A stretch of DNA of 61,244 nt, taken from positions 1-61,244 of the forward strand of contig QHSA01000160.1 in NCBI GenBank assembly GCA_003220315.1. Direction: 5' to 3'. The notes under the pieces are model-generated. The model made no database searches and was not told where the DNA came from. It was given only the letters and a program-made list of their open reading frames with translations. Each line of letters starts with the position of its first letter. Position 1 is the first letter of the stretch. Shown here one piece after another: positions 1 through 2,739 of the stretch. Source of the stretch: Candidatus Rokuibacteriota bacterium (GTDB lineage: Bacteria; Methylomirabilota; Methylomirabilia; Rokubacteriales; CSP1-6). The position numbers and the translations under genes were made by a program.

Positions 1-335
1 TCTGGTACCCCTTGCGGCGCACGGGCGCGTTCGCACGCCTGAGCCCGAAGGAGCAGGGCGAGATCATCCGCGAGCACAGCGTGTTGGGTCGTGCGTACGG
101 TGATGCCGATCTCGCCCACGACATCCGCCTGGCGTGCCACGGGCTCGACGTGCACGACAACGACTTCGTCATCGGCCTGGTCGGCCGCGACCTCCATCCG
201 CTCTCCCACCTGGTCCAGGCGATGCGCAAGACTCTGCAGACCTCGCAGTACATCCAGACGCTCGGCCCGTTCTTCGTCGGCCACGCCCTCTGGCAGAGCC
301 CGCTCGGCGGACCCGGCGCCCGGGCCCAGCAGTAG
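1..335 (+). CDS. Chlorite dismutase/coproheme decarboxylase (HemQ)-family protein, C-terminal part (5' end outside window)
   Basis: Frame from nt 3: WYPLRR..F..L...EQ..I..EH..LG; GLD..D.DFVIG; LV..MR.T..TS.Y....GPFFVG, typical of the Cld/HemQ fold. Confidence 0.75.
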   Translation, partial: WYPLRRTGAFARLSPKEQGEIIREHSVLGRAYGDADLAHDIRLACHGLDVHDNDFVIGLVGRDLHPLSHLVQAMRKTLQTSQYIQTLGPFFVGHALWQSPLGGPGARAQQ

Positions 336-425
336 AGGGAAGGAGAACCAGGGACTCGTGTTCGCGTTGGCATAGACTGCGCTTCGCCGGCCGCACGGCG
401 CCTCAGAAGCCCGCAGAAAACTTGC

Positions 426-455
426 TTGACGGGCCTTTTGCCCGCGACGTATCTT
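426..455 (+). promoter_or_regulatory. sigma70-type promoter for satD
   Basis: TTGACG (426-431), 18-nt spacer, TATCTT (450-455). Confidence 0.55.
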
Positions 456-503
456 GCACCCTGATATGGGTGCACACGATCGATGCACCGCTAAACGGGT
501 GCA
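455..503. repeat. Tandem palindromic operator pair TGCACCC-N6-GGGTGCA (copies 1-2)
   Basis: 455-474 TGCACCC-TGATAT-GGGTGCA; 484-503 TGCACCG-CTAAAC-GGGTGCA; 29-bp period. Confidence 0.8.
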
Positions 504-509
504 GAGGGC

Positions 510-1223
510 ATGAAACGCGCACGTGCCCCAATCGCGGTTCTCACCGCGGATGTTGTCGGTTCGTCGCGCTACAGCTCGACCGATCGCCGGAAGCTCGACG
601 AAGTCATTCGTAAGGCGTTCGCCGAGGTCGAGCACCGATTTCCTGACGCCATCCACACCAGGCTGGCGTTCCGGATCACCGCCGGGGACGAGTTTCAGTG
701 TGTCATATCGGATACGCCGCGGGTGCTGGATATCCTCACGTACTTCCGTGCCGTGGTGGCCGCCAGCGGCTTGAGCCCGACGGTGCGCCTGCGGGCGTCT
801 GTGGGGATCGGGGATCTCACAACCCCGAGGCGCCAGAATCCCTACGAGGAAGACGGTCCCGCATTCGTCTATGCGCGGAACGGCCTCGAGGAGATCACGA
901 AGACCCGTAGCCCGCTCCGGGCCACGAAACTCATGACGGGGGTCCCGGAAGCCGACGCAGCGGCTGATGCCGTCCTCTGCCTGACGGATTTCATCCAGCA
1001 ATCGTGGACGGTCGCACAATGGGAAGCCATTCGATGGAGCCTGCTCGGACTGACTCGGGAGGCGATCGCGAGCAAGCTCAAGGTCGCCCATCAGAACGTG
1101 ACGAAGCGCCTTCTTGCCGCTGGCTGGCCTCACTTCGAGGTAGCGGCGGCTTTCCTCCACGAGCTGATCGAAAGGACCGCCCGCACCCCACGTAGGGTGC
1201 AGAAGGCCTCTGCACCCCGATGA
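510..1223 (+). CDS. satD: SatD-family protein (cyclase/GGDEF-like palm plus C-terminal HTH)
   Basis: TADVVGSS, AGDEFQ, LRASVGIG, DGPAF..AR motifs; C-terminal TREAIASKLKVAHQNVTKRL HTH. Confidence 0.8.
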   Translation: MKRARAPIAVLTADVVGSSRYSSTDRRKLDEVIRKAFAEVEHRFPDAIHTRLAFRITAGDEFQCVISDTPRVLDILTYFRAVVAASGLSPTVRLRASVGIGDLTTPRRQNPYEEDGPAFVYARNGLEEITKTRSPLRATKLMTGVPEADAAADAVLCLTDFIQQSWTVAQWEAIRWSLLGLTREAIASKLKVAHQNVTKRLLAAGWPHFEVAAAFLHELIERTARTPRRVQKASAPR

Positions 1224-1230
1224 GGGTGTA
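1182..1230. repeat. Second tandem palindromic operator pair (copies 3-4)
   Basis: 1182-1201 CGCACCC-CACGTA-GGGTGCA; 1211-1230 TGCACCC-CGATGA-GGGTGTA; 29-bp period. Confidence 0.8.
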
Positions 1231-1233
1231 ACA

Positions 1234-1965
1234 ATGCTCCTCTTCTTTCAGCTCTATCTCGCGCATCTTGTCGCCGACTTCCTGCTGCAGCCCGACTGGG
1301 TCGCCAGGAGGAAGACGGAGGTTCGGCCTCTCTCCGCCCACGCTGCGACCCATCTCCTGTGCGCGGCCGCCGCCGTGAATCTCGGGCTCGACCGTCGCGT
1401 CGCTGGGGCGATCGTCGCCGTCGCCCTCATCCACACCCTGCTCGACTATGCGAAGGCCAGGCTCTCAGGTGACGGCTGGATCGCGTTCACGGCGGATCAG
1501 GCGGCGCACCTCATGGTCGTCGCTCTGGCCTCGATCTGGCTCACGGCCTCGTGGCCCCGGATGATCGACGTCGTCCGCTCCATCGTCACCAACCCGCTTG
1601 TCTATCTGTACGCCTGTGCCTATGTCGCCGTGGTGTTCGGAGGGGGGTATCTGGTGCAGAAGGTCACTCAATCCTTTCTCGCCACGATGCAGAGCAGCTT
1701 GGCTCAGTTGAAGCCCGGTCTCCCGAGCGCAGGAAAATACATCGGATGGGTGGAGCGCATTCTGATTCTGACGTTCATCGTCGGCGGCTACGAGACTGCC
1801 GTGGGATTCCTGCTCGCGGCAAAGGCGCTCGTGCGATACCCCGAGATCAAGGAAGACACCCGGGGGCACTTCGCCGAGTACTTCCTCGTCGGGACGTTGA
1901 CGAGCGTCGGCCTCGCTCTCATTGCCGGCATGGCGGTGAACAAGCTGAGAAGTTTTCTCGGGTGA
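1234..1965 (+). CDS. DUF3307 (SatE-like) membrane protein
   Basis: LAHLVADFLLQ, HAATH, HTLLDYAK, DQAAH, GKYIGWVER, AKAL.R, EYFLVGTL; several TM helices. Confidence 0.8.
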   Translation: MLLFFQLYLAHLVADFLLQPDWVARRKTEVRPLSAHAATHLLCAAAAVNLGLDRRVAGAIVAVALIHTLLDYAKARLSGDGWIAFTADQAAHLMVVALASIWLTASWPRMIDVVRSIVTNPLVYLYACAYVAVVFGGGYLVQKVTQSFLATMQSSLAQLKPGLPSAGKYIGWVERILILTFIVGGYETAVGFLLAAKALVRYPEIKEDTRGHFAEYFLVGTLTSVGLALIAGMAVNKLRSFLG

Positions 1966-2004
1966 GGATGTGTCGGCCGTAAGATTCTAGTCGATGCCTG
2001 AGAC

Positions 2005-2739
2005 CTATCGTTCCGTCACCCCCGCGGGCTCCTCGAGCCACTCCAGGACGGCGGGAACCAGCGTCGCCAGGACCCGGCGGTTGAGCACGAGCCCCCAGTG
2101 GGAGGCGCCGTCGGCGACGAGATGCTTGGCGACGAGGGGGAGGTTCTGGTAACGCTCGCGTGGCCAGAACGTGTCCGCGGTCCCCGTAACGACCAGGAGC
2201 GGACAGGGAAGCGGTTCGACCACGATTCCGGCCGCGCGCTCGTCGCGCGCGAGCTGGGACTCCGAGCCGAGCGACGCGAGCGCGATTCGCCGCTCCTCCC
2301 GATCGAGGTCGGGCATCGTGGGCTGATATTCCAGATCGGACGACGTGATCCCGTACGCGTCGGGGCCGAACGTGCCGGTGCGCAGCGGGACGGCGCGATC
2401 GGTCGCGCGGGCCGGCGCGCTCGGCGCAAGTCCGACGCAGGCGACGGCCCCGCACACACCCGCGGCCATCATCGCCACGAGCCCTCCCATGGACCATCCG
2501 AGCAGCACGGGTGGCCGCGGAAGAGCCCGCGTCGCCGCGACGACGTCCTCGGCGTAATCCGCCATCCGCGTCGTGCCGAGGTCCGGCCCCGCACGCTCCC
2601 CGTGACCGCGAAGGTCGAGGGCGAGCGTGGGCCAGCCGCGCCGCTCGAGCGCCTCGCGCCAGAAGGTCCAGACGCGCGCGGAGTTCGCCGAGCCGTGAAC
2701 GAGGAGGAGAGGAGGACGGTCCCGCGAGGACGTCGTCAG
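2005..2739 (-). CDS. alpha/beta-fold hydrolase (probable CTG start overlapping gltD stop)
   Basis: LLLVHGSANS oxyanion motif and DLRGHG lie in frame upstream of the ORF-track start; nucleophile GWSMGG; G..D and SH near C-terminus. Confidence 0.75.
   Translation of the reverse strand: MTTSSRDRPPLLLVHGSANSARVWTFWREALERRGWPTLALDLRGHGERAGPDLGTTRMADYAEDVVAATRALPRPPVLLGWSMGGLVAMMAAGVCGAVACVGLAPSAPARATDRAVPLRTGTFGPDAYGITSSDLEYQPTMPDLDREERRIALASLGSESQLARDERAAGIVVEPLPCPLLVVTGTADTFWPRERYQNLPLVAKHLVADGASHWGLVLNRRVLATLVPAVLEWLEEPAGVTER

What the first reader, a model, noticed from the sequence alone, without database searches (positions are those of the whole stretch)
455..1230. Two identically spaced pairs of a 20-bp palindrome bracket satD
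Seen: four copies of TGCACCC-N6-GGGTGCA at 455, 484, 1182 and 1211. Both pairs have an exact 29-bp period, the N6 spacers all differ, and each pair ends just before a start codon (6 nt before satD, 3 nt before DUF3307). Pair 1 abuts the -10 element. Pair 2 is superimposed on the satD C-terminal codons and stop. Inference: cooperative operators for the SatD HTH, with the two pairs (727 bp apart) allowing looping or a roadblock that keeps the membrane gene off. Alternatives are RNA hairpins gating translation or recombination sites. I know of no described SatD operator.
Basis: partly seen in the sequence, partly recalled or inferred. Interest (0 to 1): 0.8.

Follow-up and report, generated by a model that had tools for sequence, protein, structure and literature searches.

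The report
SatD repressor's paired operator sites
Four matching mirror-image DNA sites bracket a small regulator gene and are most likely where that regulator binds to keep itself and the neighbouring membrane-protein gene switched off, a layout shared by relatives in several bacterial phyla.

Summary
In detail: four copies of TGCACCC-N6-GGGTGCA sit at 455, 484, 1182 and 1211 (0, 1, 1 and 1 mismatches), with a 29-bp period in both pairs. The motif is not a genome-wide repeat. Among 132 unique homologous loci, both pairs are present in 64 of 71 evaluable loci with SatD at 38% identity or more, with a period of 29 or 28 bp. Pair 1 overlaps the predicted -10/+1 of the only promoter-like site; pair 2 has none. 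Half-sites inside the satD tail are conserved at four-fold degenerate positions. Mismatches show no wobble bias, which argues against RNA hairpins. The outer half-site base tracks residues 194 and 198 of the SatD recognition helix, but this rests on only about 3 independent changes. SatD is a cyclase-fold domain plus an HTH and is predicted to form a symmetric dimer. Best reading: these are SatD operators. Pair 1 gives autorepression; pair 2 is an operator inside the operon that guards DUF3307. Binding has not been shown. I found no paper describing this. Earlier agents of this scan reported the same layout on other genomes.

The parts
410..1975 (+). Extent of the conserved cassette: promoter, operators, satD, operators, DUF3307
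   Evidence: homology to relatives begins at window 409-414 (L006, L078, L086) and ends at 1948-1980. The flanks differ or carry insertions or deletions between loci.
426..431 (+). -35-like hexamer TTGACG
   Evidence: consensus scan. TTG is conserved at -29 from box 1 in loci with 45-100% identity.
450..455 (+). -10-like hexamer TATCTT; its last base is the first base of box 1
   Evidence: in 21 of 26 loci with a promoter-like match, the -10 ends within -2 to +1 of the box 1 start.
455..474 (.). Box 1, perfect palindrome TGCACCC-TGATAT-GGGTGCA; covers the predicted -10 end and +1 region
484..503 (.). Box 2 (1 mismatch), 29 bp after box 1; ends 6 nt before the satD ATG
510..1223 (+). satD: cyclase-fold palm domain (about residues 8-145) plus C-terminal HTH (helices 183-190 and 194-203) and a low-confidence tail
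1182..1201 (.). Box 3 (1 mismatch), inside the last 14 codons of satD
1211..1230 (.). Box 4 (1 mismatch), 29 bp after box 3; its spacer holds the satD stop codon, and its right half GAGGGTG is Shine-Dalgarno-like and ends 3 nt before the DUF3307 ATG
1234..1965 (+). DUF3307 gene: all-helical membrane-type protein with a conserved His/Asp cluster

Best explanation
The four 20-bp palindromes are DNA operators of SatD, the product of the gene they bracket. SatD consists of a nucleotide-cyclase-fold (palm) domain and a C-terminal helix-turn-helix. It most likely binds each palindrome as a two-fold symmetric dimer, and two dimers occupy each pair at a fixed 29-bp spacing. Pair 1 overlaps the -10/+1 region of the cassette's only recognisable promoter, so occupancy there shuts off satD and DUF3307 together (negative autoregulation). 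Pair 2 has no promoter of its own. It lies inside the operon, over the last satD codons and the DUF3307 ribosome-binding region. There it most likely acts as a roadblock to polymerases that escape pair 1, as a looping partner of pair 1, or both, giving the membrane-protein gene a second lock. The palm domain is presumably the signal input (a nucleotide-like ligand) that releases repression. What is shown here: the sites exist, they are specific to this locus, they are conserved at both positions across phyla, selection on them acts at the nucleotide level, and they sit on the promoter. What is inferred: that SatD binds them, that it binds as a dimer, that binding represses, the role of pair 2, and the ligand.
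For: The sites are specific to this locus; the genome has 11 sites with up to 2 mismatches against 24 for the control, and 4 of the 6 sites with up to 1 mismatch are here; of 13 genome-wide pairs at 28-30 bp, only the two here have 0-1 core mismatches; the other 11 have 2+2, and the control pattern gives 6 pairs.

The layout is conserved., 132 unique loci: both pairs are present in 15/15 loci (75% identity or more), 18/21 (55-75%), 15/17 (45-55%) and 16/18 (38-45%). There are 185 pairs in about 80.5 kb of the two zones against 7 in about 470 kb elsewhere; the period is 29 bp in 150 pairs and 28 bp in 26; the closest relative, G001, keeps all four boxes while the spacers and inter-box DNA have diverged.

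The cassette travels as a unit with different flanks.

Selection acts on DNA; the six four-fold degenerate third positions inside half-sites are 0.88-1.0 conserved. The satD background mean is 0.59, and 0 of 115 background sites reach 0.9.

Pair 1 sits on a promoter and pair 2 does not; 26 of 88 box-1 segments have a sigma-70-like match, 21 of them with the -10 ending at -2 to +1. Only 2 of 76 box-3 segments do, against 6/86 and 1/84 in controls.

The HTH tracks the site. His194 goes with G at half-site position 2 in 52/52 loci, Gln198 with A in 18/18, and Glu/His/Ala198 or Phe194 with T. Residues 194 and 198 lie one helical turn apart at the start of helix 194-203.

A dimer is predicted; score 0.84 against a best control of 0.00. 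The runs agree in at least 94% of contacts and the partner pLDDT is at least 87. That mark was reached by 20 of 30 proteins solved as pairs of one chain and by 1 of 23 solved as single chains. The interface is symmetric, on residues 134-135, 150-162 and 205-219, next to the HTH.

Literature. PMC11323703 (passages read): satD of S. pyogenes is an accessory gene (178 of 249 genomes) yet scores as essential in all strains tested. A repressor of a harmful partner would be expected to behave this way.
Against: There is no binding or expression experiment.

The helix-operator correlation rests on few events. On a 92-row tree the operator class changes 3 times, His194 twice and Gln198 four times. The independent pairs go the same way (1-2 for His/G, 2 of 4 for Gln/A with 2 unchanged, 2 of 2 for the T class) and none goes the opposite way, but the sign test cannot reach significance. 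The helix columns were not left out of that tree.

29 bp is about 2.76 helical turns at 10.5 bp per turn, so neighbouring dimers would not sit on one face of the DNA.

The pair-1 to pair-2 distance varies (294-1010 bp, median 723) with no preferred helical phase.

The promoter is predicted from consensus only, and only 26 of 88 loci pass the strict scan.

The pair-2 region folds strongly as RNA (-33.4 kcal/mol, z -4.08), so an added RNA-level effect on DUF3307 translation cannot be excluded.

Below 38% identity my core motif finds both pairs in only 6/32 and 0/12 loci. This may reflect motif drift rather than absence.

Many loci are close kin, so the counts overstate independent support.
Confidence: 0.75

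Rival explanations
1. Pair 2 is the operator of a separate, non-consensus promoter that drives DUF3307 independently. SatD would then repress two promoters rather than one promoter plus an internal roadblock or loop anchor.
For: Pair 2 has the same geometry before the DUF3307 start as pair 1 has before satD: box 4 ends 0-19 nt before the start in most loci. In some distant loci (L017, L034, L041) the array is fully intergenic, 64 to about 140 nt before my estimated DUF3307 start.
Against:: a sigma-70-like match was found near box 3 in only 2 of 76 unique segments, against 26 of 88 at box 1 and 6/86 and 1/84 at satD-internal controls. In the window the 45 nt upstream of box 3 hold no -35/-10-like hexamers at the offsets used at pair 1. 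In 56 of 92 loci box 3 lies wholly inside satD.
Confidence: 0.12
2. The palindromes act in the mRNA as hairpins that hide the ribosome-binding sites of satD and DUF3307 (translational gating), not as protein-binding DNA.
For: Boxes 2 and 4 end 6 and 3 nt before the start codons, and the right half-site GGGTG is Shine-Dalgarno-like. The pair-2 region folds at -33.4 kcal/mol, z -4.08, and 0 of 200 shuffles fold as well.
Against:: the non-Watson-Crick positions show no wobble preference. Within boxes the counts are G-U 113, A-C 116 and other 143. For the nested pair-2 pairing the inner counts are G-U 21, A-C 12, other 43, and the outer counts are G-U 27, A-C 59, other 53. The stem sequence itself, not just the pairing, is conserved across phyla, and the 29/28-bp period is fixed. 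Box 1 overlaps the predicted -10/+1 and cannot be fully transcribed. The leader from about 462 folds no better than shuffles (z -1.39). No Rfam family matches (the only hit is 18.6 bits against a gathering score of 80).
Confidence: 0.05
3. The boxes are operators, but they are bound by another DNA-binding protein encoded elsewhere, not by SatD.
For: Binding by SatD is untested, and the helix-operator correlation has few independent events.
Against: The boxes travel with the two-gene cassette into unrelated flanks and phyla. SatD is the only DNA-binding protein in the cassette. In this genome well-matched pairs occur nowhere else. The outer half-site base follows the SatD recognition helix without exception in 92 loci.
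Confidence: 0.06
4. The two pairs are recombination or inversion sites that flip or excise satD.
For: Identical inverted-repeat sites flank a gene.
Against: The cassette encodes no recombinase. Among 119 evaluable unique loci, DUF3307 lies directly downstream on the same strand in 105, on the same strand elsewhere in 2, is not found in 12, and is on the opposite strand in 0. No convincing terminal repeats were found at the cassette borders.
Confidence: 0.01

Closest known systems
Pfam SatD (PF16264) / DUF3307 (PF11750) gene pair, named after satD-satE of the Streptococcus mutans sat operon
   Same: Both proteins pass the curated cut-offs. The pair is adjacent and co-directional here and in 105 of 119 evaluable loci.
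   Different: I found no function, DNA site or regulator role for the family in print. The papers seen only mention an acid-tolerance association (PMC13492114, passages) and Tn-seq essentiality (PMC11323703, passages). The original 2001 paper was not held.
Auxiliary operators inside operons and looping or roadblock repression (lac O1/O2, gal OE/OI, deo operators; recalled, not tested here)
   Same: A primary operator sits on the promoter and a second operator lies hundreds of bp downstream inside or after the first gene. Here the distance is 727 bp.
   Different: Here each operator is a pair of palindromes at a fixed 29-bp period. The second pair is written into the regulator's own last codons and the next gene's ribosome-binding region. 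The regulator gene itself is what is bracketed.
Cooperative tandem operators of phage lambda CI (OR1-OR2) and the four hipBA operators bound by HipB (recalled; the HipB comparison comes from earlier scan notes e1-5205800 and e1-4864102)
   Same: Several palindromic sites at a fixed spacing over an autoregulated promoter, occupied by dimers.
   Different: The spacing is 29 bp, about 2.76 turns. The regulator has a cyclase-fold domain instead of a CI- or Xre-type architecture. Cooperativity is not shown.
Class III nucleotidyl cyclases and GGDEF diguanylate cyclases
   Same: The SatD N-terminal ~145 residues match their catalytic palm fold; 3et6 at E 2.2e-5, 4wp8 at TM 0.58 normalised to the target, 49 hits at E <= 0.001. 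Asp14 and Asp60 (in the motif A-G-D-E-F) are nearly invariant.
   Different: There is no Pfam cyclase or GGDEF match. The predicted dimer interface lies outside the palm domain. The domain is fused to an HTH. Enzymatic activity is unknown.
NrdR boxes (tandem palindromes at a fixed spacing bound by a nucleotide-sensing repressor; recalled, not tested here)
   Same: A nucleotide-binding-type sensor domain on a repressor that reads two phased palindromes at a promoter.
   Different: Unrelated protein folds, a global nrd regulon rather than a single self-contained cassette, and a different spacing.

Membership tests
Pfam SatD (PF16264) | HMM score above the gathering cut-off | tested here: met
   53.6 bits against a cut-off of 29, E 3.1e-14, residues 13-205.
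Pfam DUF3307 (PF11750) partner | Adjacent gene scoring above the gathering cut-off | tested here: met
   61 bits against a cut-off of 23; downstream on the same strand in 105 of 119 evaluable loci.
Autoregulatory repressor with operators on its own promoter | Palindromic sites overlapping the core promoter or +1 | tested here: met
   The promoter is predicted from consensus only.
Autoregulatory repressor with operators on its own promoter | The regulator binds the sites and represses transcription | not testable with these tools
   Needs EMSA or footprinting and reporter assays.
Class III nucleotidyl cyclase / GGDEF | Palm (cyclase-homology) fold | tested here: met
   Foldseek E 2.2e-5 to 1e-3 against many cyclases and GGDEF domains; TM 0.46-0.58 normalised to the target.
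Class III nucleotidyl cyclase / GGDEF | Sequence-family membership (Pfam Guanylate_cyc or GGDEF) | tested here: not met
   SatD was the only Pfam family at E <= 0.01.
Class III nucleotidyl cyclase / GGDEF | Two metal-binding acidic residues and a catalytic dimer of palm domains | tested here: inconclusive
   Asp14 and Asp60 are nearly invariant, but no residue-level superposition was made. The predicted dimer contacts lie outside the palm domain.
REP/BIME-like dispersed palindromic repeats | Many copies spread over the genome | tested here: not met
   11 sites against 24 for the control; no other well-matched pair in 4.26 Mb.
Cis-regulatory RNA hairpin | Pairing kept through compensatory and wobble changes rather than sequence | tested here: not met
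   G-U 113, A-C 116, other 143; no Rfam match.
Invertible or excisable segment | Recombinase gene and alternative orientations | tested here: not met
   0 of 119 loci have DUF3307 on the opposite strand.
Known anti-phage defence systems (PADLOC) | Match to a PADLOC model | tested here: not met
   no family for either protein at E <= 0.01.

The most novel reading that the evidence does not exclude
SatD-DUF3307 is a self-contained, horizontally moving 'double-locked' cassette of the addiction or defence type. A nucleotide-sensing repressor with a cyclase fold keeps a harmful membrane protein silent through a promoter operator pair plus an internal operator pair. The strictly kept 29-bp period exists because the palm domains of neighbouring DNA-bound dimers pair across it to form the nucleotide site, so the ligand controls cooperativity and release. 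The evidence does not exclude this reading. The cassette is sporadic and sits in different flanks. satD is an accessory gene that scores essential in S. pyogenes. The predicted dimer leaves the palm domains unpaired.
Probability: 0.2. Interest if true: 0.8.

Novelty: new variant of a known kind. Interest (0 to 1): 0.55.

Why it matters
SatD and DUF3307 (SatE) are catalogued families with no assigned function. One Tn-seq meta-analysis flags satD as the single accessory gene that scores essential in Streptococcus pyogenes (PMC11323703, passages). A defined operator gives direct handles for experiments: a predicted base-contacting pair of residues (194 and 198), a two-array layout conserved across phyla, and a cyclase-fold input domain. 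These allow footprinting, specificity swaps, ligand screens, and a test of whether the membrane protein is harmful when derepressed. The locus is also a clear example of an operator written into the regulator's own coding tail, where nucleotide-level selection dictates the protein's last residues.

Tried and rejected
A genome-wide repeat was rejected.

RNA hairpins were rejected as the main function.

Recombination sites were rejected.

An apparent in-frame satD-DUF3307 fusion in L096, L099, L105 and others was an artefact of my script, which looked for the stop only beyond the tblastn match. These loci have a normal stop after box 3. The tallies were recomputed with the first in-frame stop, which changed the stop in 10 of 132 loci.

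RNA evidence: four soil metatranscriptome runs from one study hold short contigs (151-241 nt) over window 306-625 and 654-1037 only. Nothing covers 1038-2100, so they say nothing about co-transcription, transcript starts or the junction. One contig lies upstream of the predicted promoter, and DNA carry-over cannot be excluded.

Sequence relatives with solved structures: none (best E 0.3). The C-terminal 89 residues alone give only sub-threshold hints: KorA/TrfB repressor HTH at 13.5 bits against a cut-off of 26.7, and nothing significant in PDB sequences.

DUF3307 fold: the AF2 model has pLDDT 91.7 but no informative match. Foldseek's best E is 0.26. VIA-align's best Z is 8.8 on half of the model, below the tool's stated noise level for helical bundles.

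NCBIfam and PADLOC: no hits.

Plasmids and phages: only 4 distant plasmid or megaplasmid hits (24-28% identity) and no phage hit, so mobility on such elements is not shown by this query.

Co-occurrence test for obligatory coupling, in 151 genomes of the class of G061: DUF3307 is in 4 and SatD in 2, and only G061 has both. Three genomes have short DUF3307-only ORFs (138-186 aa). One has SatD without a Pfam-level DUF3307 hit. The control genome Synechococcus elongatus has DUF3307 but no SatD. The test has low power and does not support strict coupling of the domain.

The Kremer et al. 2001 sat operon paper was not held.
Full report
OBSERVATION. The window holds exactly four matches to TGCACCC-N6-GGGTGCA at up to 2 mismatches: 455 (0), 484 (1), 1182 (1) and 1211 (1). 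Shuffles give a mean of 0.26, and 0 of 100 reach four. Both pairs have a 29-bp period and they lie 727 bp apart. The four spacers differ. Box 2 ends 6 nt before the satD ATG (510) and box 4 ends 3 nt before the DUF3307 ATG (1234). The satD stop (1221-1223) sits in the spacer of box 4. ORF 510-1223 is Pfam SatD and ORF 1234-1965 is DUF3307. The only promoter-like site in 300-2100 is TTGACG-18-TATCTT at 426-455, and its last base is the first base of box 1. The one refinement is that only box 1 is a perfect palindrome.

NOT A DISPERSED REPEAT. The window is contig C291 of a 4.26-Mb, 301-contig genome. That genome has 11 sites at up to 2 mismatches, fewer than the 24 of a reversed-pattern control. 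Four of the six sites at up to 1 mismatch are the boxes here. I then scanned with a looser core (CACCC-N6-GGGTG, up to 2 mismatches) and required a partner at 28-30 bp. This gave 13 pairs genome-wide. Only the two at this locus have 0-1 core mismatches; the other 11 are 2+2, and the control pattern gives 6 pairs. SatD therefore looks like a purely local regulator.

CONSERVATION. SatD was found in 1 of 60 relatives searched (G001, same genus, 89% identity). There all four boxes are kept at the same places and period, while the spacers and the 9-bp inter-box DNA have diverged. A protein search gave 157 homologues, of which 120 were listed. With an alignment of 37 of them, I fetched 64 loci from genome contigs and 80 from metagenome contigs. 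The titled records name Rokubacteria, Polarisedimenticolia, Pyrinomonadaceae, Blastocatellia, Thermodesulfobacteriota, Eisenbacteria, Bacillota and others.

After tblastn placement, 143 loci had an assignable satD start and 132 were unique. I dropped three duplicates of the window's own contig, exact duplicates, and loci without a start. With the first in-frame stop, a pair at 28-30 bp is present both upstream of satD and at the satD/DUF3307 junction in:
- 15/15 evaluable loci at 75% identity or more
- 18/21 at 55-75%
- 15/17 at 45-55%
- 16/18 at 38-45%
- 6/32 at 30-38%
- 0/12 below 30%

The two zones hold 185 pairs in about 80.5 kb against 7 in about 470 kb elsewhere. The period is 29 bp in 150 pairs and 28 bp in 26. 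Box 3 lies wholly inside satD in 56 loci, overlaps the stop in 31 and lies downstream in 5, so pair 2 is not a by-product of the coding sequence. Many loci are close kin, so these counts overstate independent support. My start-codon assignments are heuristic.

A CASSETTE. Homology between the window and its relatives starts at 409-414, about 16 nt before the -35, and ends at 1948-1980, about 10 nt after the DUF3307 stop. The flanks differ. L086 shares nothing outside. L006 has about 1.1 kb extra upstream. The alpha/beta-hydrolase gene at 2005-2565 is missing from L006, L073, L080 and L078. DUF3307 follows satD on the same strand in 105 of 119 evaluable loci and is never on the opposite strand. 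No terminal repeats mark the borders.

DNA OR RNA? Three tests bear on this.
- Mismatch classes. Across unique boxes, the positions that break the palindrome are G-U type 113, A-C type 116 and other 143. For the nested pairing that the RNA fold prefers in pair 2, the inner arms give G-U 21, A-C 12, other 43, and the outer arms give G-U 27, A-C 59, other 53. A selected hairpin should strongly favour wobble pairs, and these do not.
- Coding tail. In 25 loci where boxes 3 and 4 share the window's reading frame, the six four-fold degenerate third positions inside half-sites are 0.88-1.0 conserved. The satD background mean is 0.59, with 0 of 115 sites at 0.9 or more. Tail positions outside half-sites score 0.92, 0.56, 0.54 and 0.38. 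The last residues of SatD (low pLDDT) are thus dictated by the operator.
- Transcription. Box 1 overlaps the -10/+1 region, so it cannot be fully transcribed.

The pair-2 region does fold strongly as RNA (z -4.08), while the pair-1 leader does not (z -1.39). This is an expected side effect of two like palindromes in tandem, but a secondary effect on DUF3307 translation cannot be excluded. No Rfam family matches.

PROMOTER GEOMETRY. With a strict sigma-70 scan, 26 of 88 unique box-1 segments have a promoter-like match, and in 21 of them the -10 ends at -2 to +1 of the box 1 start. At box 3 only 2 of 76 do, comparable to controls inside satD (6/86 and 1/84). In the delta-proteobacterial group, TTGACA sits at -14 to -9, so box 1 lies between -35 and -10. 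Box 4 ends 0-19 nt before the DUF3307 start in most loci. Pair 1 is therefore a promoter operator, and pair 2 is an operator within the operon, placed directly on the entry to the second gene.

WHO BINDS? SatD is the only DNA-binding candidate in the cassette. The AF2 model (pLDDT 91.3, pTM 0.89; 81-row alignment) shows a palm domain followed by helices 146-164, 168-178, 183-190, 194-203 and 206-225. Foldseek matches the N-terminal ~145 residues to class III cyclases and GGDEF domains (best E 2.2e-5; 49 hits at E <= 0.001). I read helices 183-190 and 194-203 as the HTH from the model and the conserved motif. The isolated C-terminal segment gives only a sub-threshold KorA-type HTH hint.

The outer half-site base follows the first turn of helix 194-203:
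- HQNVTKR-type helices go with TGCACCC (His194 with G in 52/52 loci, including a 29%-identical Cloacimonadota locus).
- Y/W/RQNVQKR helices go with TACACCC (Gln198 with A in 18/18).
- FQSVSKR, xQNVEKR, xQNVHKR and xQNVAKR helices go with xTCACCC.

On a tree of the 92 proteins, the operator class changes only 3 times. The independent pairs all go the expected way or show no change, and none goes the opposite way, but the sign test cannot be significant with so few events. I treat this as suggestive. I did not drop the helix columns from that tree.

A homodimer prediction passes: score 0.84 against a best control of 0.00, runs agreeing in at least 94% of contacts, and partner pLDDT at least 87. 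That mark was reached by 20 of 30 proteins solved as pairs of one chain and by 1 of 23 solved as single chains. The interface is symmetric, on residues 134-135, 150-162 and 205-219, beside the HTH and outside the palm domain. This supports a two-fold dimer reading a palindrome but does not show it.

MECHANISM. I think it most likely (0.75) that SatD dimers occupy all four boxes. Pair 1 then blocks RNA polymerase at the single promoter (autorepression). Pair 2 adds a second lock on DUF3307 by roadblock, by looping to pair 1, or both. The variable pair-to-pair distance, without helical phasing, is compatible with a long loop but does not argue for one. The strictly kept 29/28-bp period suggests contact between neighbouring dimers, although 29 bp is not a whole number of helical turns. 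I have no explanation for that. The palm domain keeps Asp14 and Asp60 and is the natural input for a nucleotide-like signal. Whether it is an enzyme is open.

THE GUARDED GENE. The DUF3307 model is a confident all-helical protein (pLDDT 91.7). Nearly invariant residues are His11, Asp15, His36, His67, Asp71, Asp88, Gln89 and His92. Invariant residues include Glu174, Arg175, Lys197 and Arg201. No structural search gave an informative match, and neither did PADLOC or NCBIfam.

LITERATURE. I ran four full-text searches. None found a paper on a SatD operator or a SatD regulatory role. DUF3307 occurs in one phage annotation paper (listing only). In PMC11323703 (passages read), satD is the single accessory gene that scores essential in S. 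pyogenes Tn-seq studies (present in 178 of 249 genomes), and its function is described as unstudied outside S. mutans. PMC13492114 (passages) lists SatE among vesicle cargo. The original sat operon paper was not held, and supplements were closed. An accessory gene that is essential when present is what one expects of a repressor or antitoxin of a harmful partner. That reading is my inference and not the paper's claim.

EARLIER NOTES OF THIS SCAN. Eight notes on other genomes describe SatD operator arrays at a 29-bp period and a cyclase-like fold. I used them as leads only. The layout, the fold and the locus specificity were tested independently here. The HipB comparison is taken from those notes.

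VERDICT. The system is a classical kind (a self-repressing HTH regulator with palindromic operators) in an undescribed form: a cyclase-fold regulator, two phased operator pairs bracketing its own gene, and the second pair written into its coding tail.

Noticed in passing
window 1968-2711 (ORF 2005-2565, minus strand): The alpha/beta-hydrolase gene just downstream of the cassette (Pfam Abhydrolase_6) is absent from close relatives L073, L080, L078 and L006, where the flanking sequences join directly. It is a recent insertion or deletion next to the cassette.
   Followed up: partly
L006 280-1400 versus window 340-409: The same-genus relative G001 carries about 1.1 kb of extra DNA between the chlorite-dismutase-like gene and the cassette border. 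Its content was not examined.
   Followed up: no
L034 and L041 (Bacillota MAGs), satD-DUF3307 intergenic region: L034 has three boxes in a row at a 29-bp period in the satD-DUF3307 intergenic region; in L041 only two were listed there. In both the array lies fully between the genes, about 140 nt before my estimated DUF3307 start.
   Followed up: partly
L108 and L109; L017: Some SatD homologues carry insertions inside the HTH region: 17 Arg/Ser-rich residues between helix 2 and the recognition helix in L108 and L109, and 11 residues in L017. In L017 both box pairs are also displaced, to -206/-177 from my assigned start and +81/+110 after the stop.
   Followed up: no
window 497-507 and 1207-1217: An 11-nt perfect complement (GGGTGCAGAGG / CCTCTGCACCC) links the right half of box 2 plus 4 flanking bases to the left half of box 4 plus 4 flanking bases. 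This could be an extended half-site or chance.
   Followed up: no
window 460 and 464 (box 1): One soil RNA-library contig (run X3) differs from the window at two positions inside box 1, C>T at 460 in the left half-site and A>G at 464 in the spacer. It is probably a strain variant.
   Followed up: no
window 1234-1965 (DUF3307 protein): The N-terminal half carries a nearly invariant His/Asp/Gln cluster (H11, D15, H36, H67, D71, D88, Q89, H92). The C-terminal half has invariant G171, E174, R175, K197, R201, Y216, S224 and A228. This pattern would suit a metal or catalytic centre in the membrane.
   Followed up: partly
G104, G188, G212 (class of G061) and the control genome Synechococcus elongatus: Short DUF3307-domain ORFs (138-186 aa) occur without any SatD match, so the domain also exists outside the SatD cassette.
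   Followed up: partly
window 3-335: The window starts inside a chlorite-dismutase-family ORF (Pfam Chlor_dismutase, E 7.2e-10) that is cut by the contig end.
   Followed up: no
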